A DNA stretch of 64,000 nt, taken from NCBI GenBank assembly GCA_009914755.4, contig CP086569.2:52896001-52960000 (forward strand). The letters are read 5' to 3'. Source of the stretch: the human T2T-CHM13v2.0 reference genome, Homo sapiens. Position numbers and translations under genes: made by a program. The number at the start of each line of letters is the position of its first letter. Position 1 is the first letter of the stretch. Below are positions 1 through 64,000 of this stretch, piece after piece. Below the pieces are notes generated by a model. It was not told the origin of the DNA. It ran no database searches and saw only the letters and a list, made by a program, of their open reading frames with translations.

Positions 1-186
1 CTATAATTATATAATTTCATATATAAGATGTATAATATGTATCATATATTATATATGTTATGTAATATATATAGTATATATAAGATGACACAGGATAAAT
101 ATTATATACTATGACATATAAAATATATGAGGTTATATGTTACATATAAGGCATAGCACATAACATGTAATATATATCATATATAA

Positions 187-483
187 TTTTTTATTAGACA
201 GAATCTTGTCCTGTTGCACAGGGTGGGGTAGAATGGCGCCATCTTTGCTCACTGCAACTTCTGCCTCACGGGTCCAAGCGATTGTCCTCCCTCAGCCTCC
301 CAGGTAGCTGGGACTACACCACACTGGGACTACACCAGCTGCCACCATGCCTAGCTAATTTTTTGGATTTTTAGTAGTGACAGCGTTTCACTGTATTGGC
401 CAGGATGGTCTTGATCTCTTCACCTTGTGATCCCCTTGCCTTGGCCTCCAAATTTGCTGGGATTACAGGCCTGAGTCAAGATC
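187..483 (-). mobile_element. Ancient full-length Alu (AluS/Y lineage), antisense, CpG-decayed. Unit 1 copy; this unit is the most diverged.
   Basis: The reverse complement reads as a dimeric Alu: poly-T at the left, then agacagaatcttgtcctgttgcacagggtgg, and gctgggattacaggcctgag at the right. The segment gatcacaaggtgaagagatcaagaccatcctggcc resembles the AluS/Y middle region. Confidence 0.9.
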
Positions 484-2607
484 CATATTTTTTAAATGAA
501 AAAAAATTTCAAAGGTACTCTGCTTGGTACAATAATCAAATGTATAAACTGAGGAATAAAACATAACCATGAAACCTACTTATAAATGCATATGGAAAAT
601 ACAGAGGATAATTTTTTAAATAACATATTTTGAAAGCCTTAACTAGTAATTTGAAGAGTTGGCATTTGAAAGGCCAGTATGAATATACCTTCAAAGCAGC
701 AACACAGGTTCCCCATGAGAAAAAGCAAACTCAGGGAAAATAAAACCACAAAGGTTCAATCTCTTCGTACCTTTGAAAGACACAGCACAGACAGTGGTCC
801 TTAGGACGAAGAGCAGGAGACCCCCTAATTCCGTCACCATGGCGATAGGGAATAAACCTTGCTGGGTGAGGGCACAATCCACATTGTGAGGTCGAACTGC
901 TGTCAGGAAGACAGGAGTCCTTTTACATAGACCGAAAGGTCATTGAAGGCTCAGAGTTCTGTTTCAAGAACTGAATCCCAAGCCCACACGTTATTAGGCT
1001 GCGCTTCTTAAAACAAGTTATGAGATGGGAAACAGGGCACCCACAAACATACGTATACATTATGTATATAATAATATACAGTATCATATATATAATATAT
1101 ATAACCTATGTATAATATTGTATTACATCCTGCATCTTATACTATATATGTTGTATAAAATATAATATTTGATAATATATAAGTTTTATATTTATACAAT
1201 ATGACATATGGTATATATTATAATTTATGACATATATAATATATGTTATATATCATATATAGAATATATTATACGGTTAATATACGTATTAAATATAAAT
1301 TATACATTATATATATTATATATAATATATCTGTTATATATAATACCCATTAAGCATAATATATATATTATGTCTATGTTATATATAGTATAAAACAACA
1401 TATAATAATATATAATTGTATATATAAAATGCGACATATAATATATATTATATTTTATGACATATGTAATATATATTATATATTTTATATAATACGTTGT
1501 ATGTATAATACCTATATTAAATATATATTATATGACTATGTTATTAATTACATGTCACATATGTTATATATTATATATTTTACATAGAATATACCGGTTA
1601 CATGCAATATATACTATGTTACCTATAATGTATAATTTATTACATGTAAAATAAAGAATGCAATATATTATGTATAATTTATAATATACAATATGTGGAA
1701 TGTGATATATATAACATATAATGTATGATATAAGATATAGAGTATATGATATATAACATACAATATATGATACCTAATATATATGGTATACAATATATAT
1801 TTTATGATATGTATTCTCTATGTTTTATATTCTGTTATATATAACTATTTGAAATTATATATAACTGTATAATATTTTATGTAAATATGTAAGATAATAT
1901 ATATAACCATATAATATATTATATATAACAATATATTATGTTATATATACTTATATAACATAATTTACATAAAATATCATAATATAATATATATTATATT
2001 ATTTCATATTACATAATATATATTACATATCACCCAATATAAGTAACATACATAATATTATAATATAGATTATATTATGTTATATTAAATATCATATATA
2101 TCATGTATCATATATTCTATAATATATATTATACATTATATAATATGTATGTTGTCTATTATGTGATATATATAACTATATATATAATTATATTATTATA
2201 CATATAACTAGATAAACATGTAATTCTACATATTTTCATTTATAATATATAGAATTATATAATCATATATAATTATTTATATTCTATAAAAAATTATATC
2301 ATTATATAAATTATAATATATAAAAATTATAAGATGTACTACAAATATATATATTATATATTATATATGATATAGCACCTTTGTTATATATCATAATACA
2401 TATAAATGTGTATTATGTTATCTATAATTATAAAATTTCATATATAAGATGTATAATATGTATTATATATTATATATGTTATGTAATATATATAGTATAT
2501 ATAAGATGACGCAGGATAAATATTATATACTATGACATATAAAATATATGAGGTTATATGTTACATATAAAGCATAGCACATAACATGTAATATATATCA
2601 TATATAA

Positions 2608-2905
2608 TTTTTTTTTAGACAGAGTCTTGTCGTGTTGCACAGGGTGGAGTACAATGGCGCCATCTTTGCTCACTGCAACATCTGCCTCACGGGTCCAAGC
2701 GATTGTCCTCCCTCAGACTCCCAGATAGCTGGGACTACACCACACTGGGACTACACCAGCTGCCACCATGCCTAGCTAATTTTTTGGATTTTTAGTAGTG
2801 ACAGCCTTTCACTGCATTGGCCAGGATGGTCTTGATCTCTTCACCTTGTGATCCCCTTGCCTTGGCCTCCAAATTTGCTGGGATTACAGGCCTGAGCCAA
2901 GATCC
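2608..2905 (-). mobile_element. Ancient Alu, antisense (unit 2). Contains a 16-bp internal tandem duplication, ctgggactacacca(ca/gc), at 2729-2760 that is shared by all units.
   Basis: Same element as at 187-483. Only about 4 CpGs remain (cacgggtccaagcgattg, atggcgcc, cagcgtttc). Confidence 0.9.
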
Positions 2906-60757: not shown

Positions 60758-61055
60758 TTTTTTTTTAGACAGAATCTTGTCCTGTTGCACAGGGTGGGGT
60801 ACAATGGCGCCATCTTTGCTCACTGCAACTTCTGCCTCACGGGTCCAAGCGATTGTCCTCCCTCAGCCTCCCAGGTAGCTGGGACTACACCACACTGGGA
60901 CTACACCAGCTGCCACCATGCCTAGCTAATTTTTTGGATTTTTAGTAGTGACAGCGTTTCACTCTATTGGCCAGGATGGTCTTGATCTCTTCACCTTGTG
61001 ATCCCCTTGCCTTGGCCTCCAAATTTGCTGGGATTACAGGCCTGAGCCAAGATCC
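60758..61055 (-). mobile_element. Ancient Alu, antisense (unit 26)
   Basis: Periodic copy; variant cactctattgg shared with unit 27. Confidence 0.9.
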
Positions 61056-63177
61056 ATATTTTTTAAATGAAAAAAAATTTCAAAGGTACTCTGCTTGGTA
61101 CAATAATCAAATGTATAAACTGAGGAATAAAACATAACCATGAAACCTACTTATAACTGCATATGGAAAATACAGAGGATAATTTTTTAAATAACATATT
61201 TTGAAAGCCTTAACTAGTAATTTGAAGAGCTGGCATTTGAAAGGCCTGTATGAATATACCTTCAAAGCAGCAACACAGGTTCCCCATGAGAAAAAGCAAA
61301 CACAGGGAAAATAAAAACACAAAGGTTCAATCTCTTCTGACCTTTGAAAGACACAGCACAGACAGTGGTCCTTAGGACGAAGAGCAGGAGACCCCTAATT
61401 CCGTCACCATGGCGATAGGGCATAAACATTGCTGGGTGAGGGCACAATCCACATTGTGAAGTCCAACTGCTGCCAGGAAGACAGGAGTGCTTTTACATAG
61501 ACCGAAAGGTCATTGAAGGCTCAGAGTTTTGTTTCAAGAACTGAATCCCAAGCCCACACGTTATTAGGCTGCGCTTCTTAAAACAGGTTATGAGATGGGA
61601 AAAAGGGCACCCACAAACATACGTATACATTATGTATATAATAATATACAGTATCATATATATAATATATATAACCTATGTATAATATTGTTTTACATCC
61701 TGCATCTTATGTTATATATATTGTATAAAATATAATAATTGATAATATATAAGTTTTAAAATTATACAATATGACATATAGTATATATTATAATTTATGA
61801 CATATATAATATATGTTATATATCATATATAGAACATATTATACGGTTAATATACGTATTAAATATAAATTATATATTATATATATTATATATAATATAT
61901 CTGTTATATATAATACCCATTATGCATAATATATATATTATGTCTATGTTATATATAGTATAAAACAACATATAATAATATATAATTGTATGTAGAAAAC
62001 GCGACATATAATATATATTATATTTTATGACATATGTAATATATATTATATATTATATAAAATACGTTGTATGTATAATACCTATATTAAATATATATTA
62101 TATGACTATGTTATTAATTACATATCACATATGTTATATATTATATATTTTACATAGAATATACCGGTTACATACAATATATACTATGTTACCTATAATG
62201 TATAATTGATTACATGTAAAATAAAGAATGCAATATATTATATATAATTTATAATATACAATATGTGGAATGTGATATATATAACATATAATATATGATA
62301 TATGATATACAGTATATGATATATAACATACAATATATGATTCCTAATATATATGTTATACAATATATATTTTATGATATGTATTCTATATGTTTTATAT
62401 TCTGTTATATATAACTATTTGAAATTATATATAACTGTATAATATTTTATGTAAATATGTAATATAATATATATAACTATATAATATATTATATATAACT
62501 ATATATTATGTTATATATAATTTTATAACATAATTTACATAAAATATCATAATATAATATATATTATATTATTTCATATTACATAATATATATTAAATAT
62601 CACCCAATATAACTAACATACATAATATTATAATATAGATTATATTATATTATATTAAATATCATATATATCATGTATCATATATTCTATAATATATATT
62701 ACACATTATATAATATGTATGTTGTCTAATATGTGATATATATAACTATATATATAATTATATTTTTATACATATAACTAGATAAACATGTAATTCTACA
62801 TATTTTCATTTATAATATGTAGAATTATATAATCATATATAAATATTTATATTCTATAAAAAATTTTATCATTATATAAATTATAATATATAAAAATTAT
62901 AATATGTACTACAAATATATATATTATATATCATATATGATATAGTACCTTTGTTATATATCATAATACATGTAAATGTGTATTATGTTATCTATAATTA
63001 TATAATTTCATATATAAGATGTATAATATGTATCATATATTATATATGTTATGTAATATATATAATATATATAAGATGACACAGGATAAATATTATATAC
63101 TATGACATATAAAATATATGAGGTTATATGTTACATATAAGGCATAGCACATAACATGTAATATATATCATATATAA

Positions 63178-63475
63178 TTTTTTTTTAGACAGAATCTTGT
63201 CCTGTTGCACAGGGTGGGGTACAATGGCGCCATCTTTGCTCACTGCAACTTCTGCCTCACGGGTCCAAGCGATTGTCCTCCCTCAGCCTCCCAGGTAGCT
63301 GGGACTACACCACACTGGGACTACACCAGCTGCCACCATGCCTAGCTAATTTTTTGGATTTTTAGTAGTGACAGCGTTTCACTCTATTGGCCAGGATGGT
63401 CTTGATCTCTTCACCTTGTGATCCCCTTGCCTTGGCCTCCAAATTTGCTGGGATTACAGGCCTGAGCCAAGATCC
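63178..63475 (-). mobile_element. Ancient Alu, antisense (unit 27, last in window)
   Basis: Periodic copy; identical to unit 26 at the variant positions. Confidence 0.9.
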
Positions 63476-64000
63476 ATATTTTTTAAATGAAAAAAAATTT
63501 CAAAGGTACTCTGCTTGGTACAATAATCAAATGTATAAACTGAGGAATAAAACATAACCATGAAACCTACTTATAACTGCATATGGAAAATACAGAGGAT
63601 AATTTTTTAAATAACATATTTTGAAAGCCTTAACTAGTAATTTGAAGAGCTGGCATTTGAAAGGCCTGTATGAATATACCTTCAAAGCAGCAACACAGGT
63701 TCCCCATGAGAAAAAGCAAACACAGGGAAAATAAAAACACAAAGGTTCAATCTCTTCTGACCTTTGAAAGACACAGCACAGACAGTGGTCCTTAGGACGA
63801 AGAGCAGGAGACCCCTAATTCCGTCACCATGGCGATAGGGCATAAACATTGCTGGGTGAGGGCACAATCCACATTGTGAAGTCCAACTGCTGCCAGGAAG
63901 ACAGGAGTGCTTTTACATAGACCGAAAGGTCATTGAAGGCTCAGAGTTTTGTTTCAAGAACTGAATCCCAAGCCCACACGTTATTAGGCTGCGCTTCTTA

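What the first reader, a model, noticed from the sequence alone, without database searches (positions are those of the whole stretch)
1..64000. Whole window is one composite macrosatellite (2.42 kb unit with an embedded Alu); probably DYZ2/HSat1B of Yq12
Twenty-seven direct copies (25 complete) of a unit built from an antisense ancient Alu, a 565-bp unique segment and a 1.55-kb extremely AT-rich segment. From memory, the human male-specific 2.47 kb HaeIII satellite I family (DYZ2, HSat1B in T2T nomenclature) has one Alu per repeat and an AT-rich body, and forms large Yq12 blocks with minor blocks on acrocentric p-arms. If that identification holds, this is known heterochromatin rather than a novel system. 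If it fails, the window is an uncatalogued primate macrosatellite, which would be notable. Either way the window holds no genes.
Basis: partly seen in the sequence, partly recalled or inferred. Interest (0 to 1): 0.6.

Follow-up and report, generated by a model that had tools for sequence, protein, structure and literature searches.

The report
Human Y-type satellite DYZ2 (HSat1B) array
The whole 64-kb window is a tandem array of the well-known human 2.42-kb DYZ2/HSat1B satellite, the Alu-containing, very AT-rich repeat that fills much of the Y-chromosome long-arm heterochromatin, so it is ordinary, gene-free, already-described DNA.

Summary
The window holds 27 head-to-tail copies (26 complete, plus a fragment at each end) of a 2,420-bp unit. 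Each unit is an antisense, 5'-truncated old Alu (291 bp), a 568-bp moderately GC-rich segment and a 1,561-bp segment that is 86% AT.

Every published DYZ2/HSat1B descriptor I could test is met:
- a 2,420-bp consensus;
- module sizes of 290, 566 and about 1,560 bp;
- the ACATACG junction heptamer;
- 24-25% GC and about 1 CpG per 140 bp;
- one SpeI site per unit;
- a 2.15-kb HaeIII fragment;
- both T2T-Y HSat1B FISH-probe primers in 27 of 27 units;
- the 40-nt Yq-painting padlock target taken from the 1984 sequence in 27 of 27 units.

The window consensus is 100.000% identical over 2,497 bp to a human-contaminant contig filed under Mycobacterium. It is therefore the dominant human variant.

The chromosome could not be tested directly. 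Yq12 is most likely (about 0.85), and an acrocentric short-arm HSat1B array is not excluded.

There are no genes, no ORF of 90 aa or more and no Rfam hit. Verdict: already known, low interest.

The parts
1..64000 (+). Uninterrupted DYZ2/HSat1B tandem array. It holds 27 Alu-bearing copies of a 2,420-bp unit, read on the + strand as Alu (antisense), then HSATI segment, then AT-rich segment. Neither array boundary lies inside the window.
   Evidence: anchor spacing, BLAST tiling, and 27 SpeI sites 2,412-2,422 bp apart except at two variant units.
1..186 (+). Partial unit: the last 186 bp of an AT-rich module, cut by the window edge.
   Evidence: aligns to unit positions 2234-2419 at 96.2%.
187..19805 (+). 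Units u1-u8, the more diverged left part of the array. They are 96.4-98.7% identical to the consensus, and only one of the eight is exactly 2,420 bp (by SpeI phase).
19806..63177 (+). Units u9-u26, the homogenised part of the array. Full-length units (u16 excepted, because of its 175-bp deletion) are 98.6-99.8% identical to the consensus. Adjacent near-identical pairs occur, for example u10/u11, which differ by 3 substitutions.
48662..48952 (-). Representative unit u21, resident ancient Alu. It is sense on the - strand, 5'-truncated at Alu position 13, carries a 15-bp internal duplication, and its poly-A appears as poly-T at the unit start.
   Evidence: only 4 of 23 CpGs remain.
48953..49520 (+). 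Representative unit u21, the 568-bp moderately GC-rich segment that RepeatMasker and Dfam call HSATI. It contains the SpeI site, both T2T-Y FISH-probe primer sites (448-bp amplicon) and the NcoI site. The published 40-nt padlock target spans its left junction with the Alu head.
49521..51081 (+). Representative unit u21, the 1,561-bp AT-rich module (86% AT). It begins with the ACATACG heptamer. It is degenerate TA-rich low-complexity sequence with a 230-bp internal duplication (1.9 copies) and many imperfect inverted repeats.
12194..12462 (+). Young AluY-lineage retrotransposon inserted into the AT-rich module of unit u5, after consensus position 2337. It is 5'-truncated (starts near Alu position 41), has a poly-A of about 24 nt, and lies in the opposite orientation to the resident Alu.
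   Evidence: 3 mismatches in 241 aligned bases (1.2%) against the recalled AluY consensus, with 21 of 22 CpGs intact.
12182..12193 (+). Left copy of the 12-bp target-site duplication AGGATAAATATT.
   Evidence: read directly from the sequence.
12463..12474 (+). Right copy of the 12-bp target-site duplication AGGATAAATATT.
   Evidence: read directly from the sequence.
38575..38576 (+). Junction of a 175-bp deletion (consensus positions 1837-2011) inside the AT-rich module of unit u16, which is 2,244 bp long.
   Evidence: gap runs in the multiple alignment. Coordinates were computed from the unit start at 36741.
63178..64000 (+). Partial unit: Alu plus most of the HSATI segment, cut by the window edge.
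   Evidence: aligns to unit positions 1-822 at 97.9%.

Best explanation
The window lies inside one array of the human composite satellite HSat1B, classically called DYZ2, and most probably sits in the Yq12 heterochromatin.

The unit is a frozen 2.42-kb piece of genome made of a 5'-truncated old Alu, a 568-bp unique 'HSATI' segment and a 1.56-kb TA-rich low-complexity segment. That piece was amplified in tandem.

The array encodes nothing. By established knowledge of this family it is constitutive, heavily CpG-methylated heterochromatin. It is kept uniform, and keeps changing in copy number, through unequal sister-chromatid exchange, gene conversion and replication slippage.

Shown here:
- the identity of the repeat;
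- its anatomy;
- the decay of identity with distance along the array, the near-identical neighbouring units and the indels shared by adjacent units, all of which such local exchange predicts;
- loss of about four-fifths of the resident Alu's CpGs (19 of 23), as expected after long-term methylation;
- a later, ordinary L1-mediated AluY retrotransposition into one unit.

Inferred, not shown:
- the chromosome (Y about 0.85, acrocentric short arm about 0.12);
- the methylated state;
- the exchange mechanism itself.
For: Family identity:
- The consensus is 2,420 bp, equal to the Hallast consensus length.
- ACATACG lies at the HSATI/AT-rich junction in 24 of 26 units.
- Modules are 291, 568 and 1,561 bp, against the published 290+-2 bp, 566+-16 bp and remainder.
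- The AT-rich module is 86.2% AT, against the published '>85%'.
- GC is 24.8% and CpG density 1 per 138 bp, against 24% and 1 per 150 bp.
- The Alu is 5'-truncated and 18% diverged, scoring best against AluY and nearly as well against AluSx. Hallast likewise says AluS origin cannot be excluded.
- There are exactly 27 SpeI sites, one per unit, and 24 of 26 fragments fall in the 2,300-2,500 bp range Rhie et al. used.
- The T2T-Y HSat1B/DYZ2 FISH primers hit 27 of 27 units, convergently, giving a 447-449 bp product.
- The padlock target derived from Frommer 1984, which labelled only Yq, is present in 27 of 27 units (21 exact) with DraI immediately 3'.
- The HaeIII digest gives a dominant 2,146-bp fragment. 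This matches the classical '2.1-kb HaeIII' band, which I cite from my own knowledge.

Human origin and dominant variant:
- A 22-mer scan found the repeat in 19 'bacterial' genome contigs and 22 metagenome stretches. Rhie et al. report exactly this kind of contamination for HSat1B.
- Contig L001 is 100.000% identical to the window consensus over 2,497 bp. Others are 99.6-99.9% identical.
- Every public copy is closest to units u20-u23.

Pointers to the Y:
- HSat1B is 'almost entirely' on the Y, about 14 Mb in T2T-Y.
- Y copies are highly homogenised, more than 98% identical to their consensus. Here about 22 of 26 units reach 98%.
- An AluY insertion in the AT-rich part of a DYZ2 unit, less than 3% diverged, matches the description of two ancient Yq12 insertions.

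Mechanism signature:
- Identity falls from 99.21% at lag 1 to 98.17% at lag 15.
- u10 and u11 differ by 3 substitutions.
- A 2-bp insertion is shared by the adjacent units u9-u11.
Against: - No human reference genome, Dfam or RepeatMasker could be run, so the chromosome assignment rests on abundance and homogeneity arguments only.
- No DYZ1/HSat3 boundary lies in the window.
- Only 10-13 of 26 units are exactly 2,420 bp. Hallast's supplement says 93.7% of Yq12 units are, though their Methods give 46.8% at the equivalent 2,413 bp.
- Units u1-u8 are 96.4-98.7% identical to the consensus, which is more diverged than typical central Yq12 units. This fits an array periphery but also an acrocentric array.
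- The TSD of the AluY insertion could not be compared with Hallast Table S28, which is not held.
- Its junction was not found in either public collection.
Confidence: 0.93

Rival explanations
1. The family is the same (HSat1B), but the window comes from one of the smaller arrays on an acrocentric short arm (chr13, 14, 15, 21 or 22) rather than from Yq12.
For: - HSat1B arrays exist on the acrocentrics, and those on chr15 and chr21 are sizeable and heterogeneous.
- The left third of the window is more diverged (96.4-98.7% to consensus), and many units are not exactly 2,420 bp.
- Nothing in the window is Y-specific single-copy sequence.
Against: - The window consensus is identical to the dominant human variant recovered as contamination (L001, 100% over 2,497 bp). 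In males that variant is overwhelmingly of Y origin, about 14 Mb against 'smaller amounts' elsewhere.
- Hallast et al. could build distinct chromosome-specific acrocentric consensuses that group with only the most proximal and distal Yq12 copies.
- A minor class of public copies, 94-98% identical, is a plausible acrocentric type. It is no closer to any window unit than to the consensus.
- The AluY insertion fits the published description of Yq12 insertions.
Confidence: 0.12
2. It is an orthologous HSat1B-like array from a non-human ape assembly.
For: HSat1B is an annotation class in the ape T2T genomes. I recall older hybridisation work reporting related sequences in gorilla.
Against: - Independent contaminant contigs in bacterial assemblies from many laboratories, which are human by any reasonable expectation, are 99.6-100% identical to the window consensus over up to 2.5 kb.
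- Primers designed on human HG002 match exactly in 21-26 of 27 units, and the 1984 human padlock target in 21 of 27.
- The consensus length equals the human 2,420 bp.
Confidence: 0.02
3. It is an uncatalogued primate macrosatellite that only resembles DYZ2.
For: None remains. It was open only while the identification rested on memory.
Against: Three independently published DYZ2/HSat1B oligonucleotide sets, the published consensus length, the junction heptamer, the module sizes, the composition and the SpeI periodicity all match.
Confidence: 0.01

Closest known systems
DYZ2 / HSat1B (RepeatMasker and Dfam 'HSATI' composite). Sources: Frommer et al. 1984, NAR 12:2887; Rhie et al. 2023, T2T-Y; Hallast et al. 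2023.
   Same: All tested features agree:
- a 2,420-bp consensus;
- tripartite order AT-rich, then 5'-truncated Alu, then HSATI;
- module sizes;
- the ACATACG junction;
- GC and CpG content;
- one SpeI site per unit;
- FISH primer sites and the padlock target;
- high unit-to-unit identity, with more diverged units towards one side;
- a rare young Alu insertion in the AT-rich segment.
   Different: Nothing differs at the family level. Only 38-50% of units are exactly 2,420 bp, against the 93.7% quoted in one place by Hallast. The chromosomal location was not verified.
HSat1A ('SAR', the 42-bp A/B satellite I of chr3, chr4 and the acrocentrics)
   Same: Both are extremely AT-rich, and both were isolated in the same classical satellite I density fraction.
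   Different: It is an unrelated sequence family. HSat1A is a 42-bp repeat with no Alu and no unique segment. TRF finds no 42-bp array in the AT-rich module here. It finds only weak periods of 2, 7, 9, 16, 22, 25, 44, 53 and 58 bp, plus a 230-bp duplication of 1.9 copies.
DYZ1 / HSat3A6 (the 3.5-3.6-kb pentameric Yq12 satellite)
   Same: It is the partner satellite that alternates with DYZ2 blocks in Yq12. It evolves by the same kind of unequal exchange.
   Different: It is derived from (CATTC)n, is 38% GC and has a 3.5-kb unit. None of it is present in the window.
Other composite or TE-containing satellites (for example beta-satellite/LSau composites, SST1, and the composite satellites of Hoyt et al.)
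   Same: A transposable-element fragment is frozen into a kilobase-scale tandem unit.
   Different: The sequences and chromosomal distributions differ.

Membership tests
DYZ2 / HSat1B | Tandem unit of about 2.4 kb, with a majority consensus of 2,420 bp (Hallast 2023). | tested here: met
   The consensus is 2,420 bp and the modal unit is 2,420 bp (10 of 26 by Alu phase, 13 of 26 by SpeI phase). Searches.
DYZ2 / HSat1B | Tripartite unit: an AT-rich segment (>85% AT), a single 5'-truncated Alu of about 290 bp that is about 20% diverged from AluY, and a GC-richer 'HSATI' segment of about 566 bp. | tested here: met
   The AT-rich segment is 1,561 bp at 86.2% AT. The Alu is 291 bp, truncated at position 13, and 18.3% diverged. 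The middle segment is 568 bp at 39% GC. Searches.
DYZ2 / HSat1B | Heptamer ACATACG at the junction between the HSATI and AT-rich segments (Hallast Methods). | tested here: met
   It sits at consensus position 860 and is exact in 24 of 26 junctions, with one mismatch in the other two. One search.
DYZ2 / HSat1B | Composition of about 24% GC and about 1 CpG per 150 bp. | tested here: met
   24.76% GC and 1 CpG per 138 bp. One search.
DYZ2 / HSat1B | One SpeI site per unit, giving 2,300-2,500-bp fragments (the T2T-Y unit extraction method). | tested here: met
   27 sites, and 24 of 26 fragments in range. The two exceptions are the AluY-bearing unit and the deleted unit. One search.
DYZ2 / HSat1B | Amplifiable with the T2T-Y HSat1B/DYZ2 FISH-probe primers (probe shown to paint Yq12). 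| tested here: met
   The forward primer hits 27 of 27 units (21 exact) and the reverse primer 27 of 27 (26 exact). They are convergent with a 447-449 bp product..
DYZ2 / HSat1B | Contains the 40-nt target taken from the Frommer 1984 male-specific 2.47-kb satellite I sequence, with a DraI site 3' of it. The padlock probe labelled only Yq. | tested here: met
   27 of 27 units carry it: 21 exact, 5 with one mismatch and 1 with two. TTTAAA follows all exact copies..
DYZ2 / HSat1B | Classical restriction definition: a male-specific HaeIII band of about 2.1 kb (from my own knowledge; no held paper states it). | tested here: met
   In-silico HaeIII gives fragments of 45, 25, 204 and 2,146 bp per unit. 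24 of 26 large fragments are 2,138-2,148 bp..
DYZ2 / HSat1B | RepeatMasker/Dfam annotation as HSATI (DF0000210) plus AluY plus AT-rich. | not testable with these tools
   No Dfam or RepeatMasker is available. The expected labels are known.
DYZ2 / HSat1B | Near-identity to independent human copies of the repeat. | tested here: met
   L001 is 100.000% identical over 2,497 bp, L006 99.92%, L032 99.93%, L009 99.89%. 41 public stretches were found in total..
Yq12 location specifically (DYZ2 in the strict sense) | Lies on the Y long arm in blocks that alternate with DYZ1/HSat3, and carries Y-type rather than acrocentric-type variants. | tested here: inconclusive
   The window has no array boundary, and the partly DYZ2 public loci have only chimeric bacterial flanks. 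Indirect support comes from identity to the dominant variant, from homogeneity and from an AluY insertion of the type reported on Yq12. No reference alignment was possible.
HSat1A (SAR) | Arrays of a 42-bp (17 + 25 bp) unit. | tested here: not met
   TRF finds no 42-bp periodicity in the AT-rich module. The family is described as unrelated. The SAR consensus was not available for direct alignment.

The most novel reading that the evidence does not exclude
The one element that might not be catalogued is the young AluY at 12194-12462, with TSD AGGATAAATATT, inserted at DYZ2 consensus position 2337. Hallast et al. found only two AluY insertions in the AT-rich part of DYZ2 across seven complete Yq12 assemblies. 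If this one is neither of them, it is a new lineage-specific marker of one DYZ2 array. If the window turns out to be acrocentric, it is a new marker of an acrocentric HSat1B array. Such markers are useful for tracing array duplication and exchange, but they do not define a new kind of element.
Probability: 0.2. Interest if true: 0.12.

Novelty: already known. Interest (0 to 1): 0.06.

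Why it matters
For discovery purposes it does not matter much. This is textbook human heterochromatin, first described in 1976-1984 and fully sequenced in 2023.

The practical value is negative screening. Windows like this one should be recognised and set aside. The same 2.42-kb unit is a common human contaminant in bacterial and metagenomic assemblies (19 genome contigs and 22 metagenome stretches found here), so a cheap k-mer or primer test for it is useful.

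The AluY insertion and the 175-bp deletion are minor features that could serve as positional markers inside an otherwise monotonous array.

Tried and rejected
1. I scanned genome contigs and metagenome contigs for the junction between the young AluY and its DYZ2 flank (ACAGGATAAATATTGGGAGGCCGAGGC). Neither gave a hit, so the insertion could not be traced elsewhere.

2. The original Frommer 1984 paper (PMC318713) and the journal version of Rhie 2023 (PMC10752217) are not held. I used the bioRxiv versions and papers that quote the 1984 sequence.

3. I looked in the T2T-Y supplement for my contaminant contig accessions (Supplementary Table 32). None was found in the held files, and the spreadsheet was cut when stored.

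4. I looked for DYZ1/HSat3 boundaries in the non-DYZ2 parts of related loci. Those parts are chimeric bacterial or metagenomic sequence, or runs of N.

5. I tested whether the diverged left-hand units (u1-u8) share variants with the minor 94-98% class of public copies, which might be acrocentric-type. They do not. Every public copy is closest to u20-u23, so the left-hand differences are private.

6. I considered a higher-order repeat (multi-unit periodicity). u3/u6 and u21/u23 show slightly raised identity, but there is no consistent multi-unit period. Identity simply decays with distance.

7. I considered a derivation of the AT-rich module from the 42-bp HSat1A repeat. No 42-bp period is present.

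8. Rfam and ORF scans for any functional element found nothing.

9. The first version of the locus-versus-window BLAST timed out. I reran it with megablast.

Full report
**Observation.** The window is 24.8% GC and strictly periodic. An Alu-derived 16-mer occurs 27 times. Its spacings are 2,413-2,422 bp except for one of 2,699 bp and one of 2,244 bp. BLAST of unit 2608-5026 tiles the window on the + strand from base 1 to base 64000.

Composition cycles with the same period, from about 50% GC through about 40% to 10-17% GC. Phasing units at the poly-T of the antisense Alu gives 26 complete units (187-63177), a 186-bp tail at the left edge and an 823-bp head at the right edge.

A MAFFT alignment of the 26 units gives a 2,420-bp majority consensus. 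Mean pairwise identity is 98.1%, with a range of 95.5-99.9%. The consensus has three modules:
- an Alu, positions 1-291, 51% GC;
- a middle segment, 292-859 (568 bp), 39% GC;
- an AT-rich segment, 860-2420 (1,561 bp), 86.2% AT.

**Anatomy.** The resident Alu is antisense on the + strand and is 5'-truncated at Alu position 13. It carries a 15-bp internal duplication.

Its substitution divergence is 18.3% from AluY, 18.0% from AluSx and 22% from AluJo. Of its 49 mismatches, 22 lie at former CpG positions, and only 4 of 23 CpGs survive. This is the signature of an old, long-methylated copy.

The AT-rich module is degenerate TA-rich low-complexity sequence. It has a 230-bp internal duplication of 1.9 copies at about 76% identity. 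It has weak short periods but no 42-bp period. It also has 81 imperfect inverted-repeat pairs within 300 bp in a single unit, in line with the reported enrichment of inverted and mirror repeats in HSat1B.

There is no ORF of 90 aa or more in any frame and no Rfam family at gathering score.

From Hallast et al. 2023 (bioRxiv 10.1101/2022.12.01.518658):
- The final consensus is 2,420 bp.
- The heptamer ACATACG lies at the junction between the HSATI and AT-rich segments.
- GC is 24% and CpG density is 1 per 150 bp.
- The supplement gives the Alu as 290+-2 bp, HSATI as 566+-16 bp and the median unit as 2,420 bp. It says the Alu is about 20% diverged, 'primarily AluY' but too diverged to exclude AluS.

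The window gives a 2,420-bp consensus and ACATACG at consensus position 860, exact in 24 of 26 junctions. Its modules are 291 and 568 bp, its GC is 24.8% and its CpG density is 1 per 138 bp. The AluY-versus-AluS ambiguity is also the same.

From Rhie et al. 2023 (bioRxiv 10.1101/2022.12.01.518724):
- The unit has an AluY about 20% diverged, a region more than 85% AT and a GC-richer region.
- Units were cut out in silico with SpeI, keeping fragments of 2,300-2,500 bp.
- The HSat1B/DYZ2 FISH probe that painted Yq12 was amplified with CGCAGCCTAATAACGTGTGGGCTTG and AATAAAACATAACCATGAAACCTAC.

The window has exactly 27 SpeI sites, one per unit, and 24 of 26 fragments fall in range. Both primers match all 27 units (21 and 26 exact). 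They are convergent and give a 447-449 bp product inside the 568-bp segment.

Lohmann et al. 2007 (PMC2212658) designed a padlock probe on a 40-nt target taken from the original Frommer 1984 sequence. It labelled only the Y long arm, and they used DraI as the enzyme cutting 3' of the target. The joined probe arms match all 27 units (21 exact, 5 with one mismatch, 1 with two). The target spans the junction between the Alu head and the HSATI segment. TTTAAA follows every exact copy.

An in-silico HaeIII digest gives fragments of 45, 25, 204 and 2,146 bp per unit. That corresponds to the classical 2.1-kb HaeIII band, which I cite from my own knowledge.

**Related sequences elsewhere.** Rhie et al. 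report that HSat1B is a frequent human contaminant of bacterial RefSeq assemblies. A conserved 22-mer from the 568-bp segment found 19 contigs in the GTDB species-representative genomes, filed under Mycobacterium, Bifidobacterium, Streptomyces, Vibrio and others. It also found 22 metagenome stretches.

Contig L001 (LZSC01000004.1, 2,497 bp) is evidently a collapsed short-read assembly of the repeat. It is 100.000% identical to the window's majority consensus over its whole length, which is a full unit plus a 77-bp overlap. L006, L032, L009 and L011 are 99.8-99.9% identical. A minority of copies are 94-98% identical.

Every public copy is closest to units u20-u23 of the window. The window consensus is therefore the dominant human form of the repeat. 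This effectively excludes a non-human origin.

[quoted passage not shown] It covers about 14 Mb in T2T-Y, in blocks of 20-1,200 kb, with smaller amounts on the acrocentric short arms. The arrays on chr15 and chr21 are sizeable but heterogeneous.

Four points favour Yq12:
- the window consensus is identical to the most abundant human variant;
- about 22 of 26 units are at least 98% identical to the consensus, as reported for Y copies;
- divergence rises towards one side of the window, as reported for array peripheries;
- unit 5 has an AluY insertion of the kind reported on Yq12.

Three points argue against it, or are neutral:
- only 10-13 of 26 units are exactly 2,420 bp, against the 93.7% quoted in Hallast's supplement, although their Methods give 46.8% for the equivalent 2,413 bp;
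- units u1-u8 are 96.4-98.7% identical to the consensus;
- there is no DYZ1 boundary in the window or in the related loci.

I put Yq12 at about 0.85, an acrocentric array at about 0.12 and anything else at 0.03 or less.

**How it works.** The array has no coding or known RNA function. Its behaviour is that of a satellite evolving in concert.

Within the homogeneous part (u9-u26), mean identity falls steadily with distance, from 99.21% between neighbours to 98.17% at 15 units apart. Some neighbours are almost identical: u10 and u11 differ by 3 substitutions, and u21 and u23 by 5. A 2-bp insertion is shared by the adjacent units u9-u11, and two deletions are shared by u3 and u6.

These patterns are what local unequal sister-chromatid exchange, gene conversion or slippage produce. 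They match the published model for Yq12. The exchange mechanism itself is inferred, not shown. Heavy CpG methylation is reported for DYZ2 and is consistent with the CpG decay seen here, but it cannot be read from sequence.

Unit u5 is 2,699 bp long because a second Alu sits at 12194-12462 on the + strand. It is 5'-truncated (it starts near Alu position 41) and has a poly-A of about 24 nt. It is flanked by a perfect 12-bp target-site duplication, AGGATAAATATT, at 12182-12193 and 12463-12474. It has 3 mismatches in 241 aligned bases against the AluY consensus and keeps 21 of 22 CpGs.

This is an ordinary L1-mediated retrotransposition into the AT-rich module, after consensus position 2337. It has not spread to neighbouring units within the window.

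Hallast et al. describe exactly two AluY insertions in the AT-rich part of DYZ2 on Yq12. Both are 3% diverged or less and predate the Y haplogroup radiation. Copy number is 1-17 per chromosome, and one of the two is absent from T2T-Y. Their Table S28, which lists the TSDs, is not held, so I cannot say whether this is one of them.

Unit u16 is 2,244 bp long because consensus positions 1837-2011 are deleted. The junction lies at about 38575/38576.

In the published annotations the HSATI label belongs to the 568-bp middle segment. The AT-rich module is labelled 'AT-rich' or simple repeat. T2T-Y defined HSat1B by merging the 'HSAT1', 'AT-rich' and 'AluY' annotations. Taken literally, that criterion would have wrongly refuted a correct identification.

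**Verdict.** The Yq12 location is probable but untested. This is already-known constitutive heterochromatin, and its interest is low. The decisive check is a reference alignment and a RepeatMasker run, as listed under next steps.

Noticed in passing
window 12182-12474: A young, 5'-truncated AluY-lineage element lies at 12194-12462 on the + strand, with a poly-A of about 24 nt. It is 1.2% diverged from the recalled AluY consensus. It is flanked by a perfect 12-bp target-site duplication, AGGATAAATATT, and sits in the AT-rich module of unit 5 only. It fits the description of the two ancient AluY insertions reported in DYZ2 on Yq12, but the published TSD table was not available for comparison.
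   Followed up: partly
window 36741-38984 (junction about 38575/38576): Unit 16 lacks 175 bp (consensus 1837-2011) of the AT-rich module, so it is 2,244 bp long. The deletion is private to this unit within the window.
   Followed up: partly
window 187-19805 versus 19806-63177: Divergence runs in one direction along the array. Units 1-8 are 96.4-98.7% identical to the consensus, and unit 2 is the outlier at 96.4%. Full-length units among 9-26 are 98.6-99.8% (unit 16 is set aside because of its 175-bp deletion). The extra differences in the left units are private, not shared with the diverged public copies. This suggests the left edge lies nearer an array periphery.
   Followed up: yes
L001 (LZSC01000004.1, 'Mycobacterium sp. 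1100029.7'), L003, L005, L006, L009-L012, L019 and other genome-contig hits: Human DYZ2/HSat1B sequence is deposited as contigs of bacterial genome assemblies. It was found in 19 species-representative genomes. Several of these contigs are about 2.4-2.5 kb and are collapsed full units. This reproduces the contamination reported by Rhie et al.
   Followed up: yes
L007:5897-6920 (NZ_HF570958.1, Nostocoides japonicum T1-X7, 5.16-Mb scaffold): A 1,024-bp DYZ2 fragment, 98% identical to the consensus, sits inside a chromosome-scale bacterial scaffold. It lies between 69%-GC bacterial sequence and a run of Ns. It looks like a human contaminant contig that was scaffolded into the genome.
   Followed up: partly
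L020, L028, L040, L041 (BNJT01002008.1, 54 kb) and L025 (BNJU01004413.1, 54.6 kb): Two metagenome contigs of about 54 kb carry multi-unit DYZ2 arrays. They are 96-98.6% identical to the consensus and have many small gaps, which probably reflects long-read error. They are human DNA assembled within metagenomes.
   Followed up: no
window, every unit; for example 49612-50049: The AT-rich module contains an internal 230-bp duplication of about 1.9 copies at about 76% identity. The resident Alu contains a 15-bp internal duplication (GTAGTCCCAG...GTAGTCCCAG). Both are fixed in all units, so they predate the amplification.
   Followed up: partly
L002, L024, L004, L015 (public copies 94-98% identical): A minority class of public HSat1B copies is clearly more diverged from the window consensus. 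In L024 the AT-rich part no longer aligns at 80% identity. These may be acrocentric-type or peripheral variants. No label was available to test this.
   Followed up: partly
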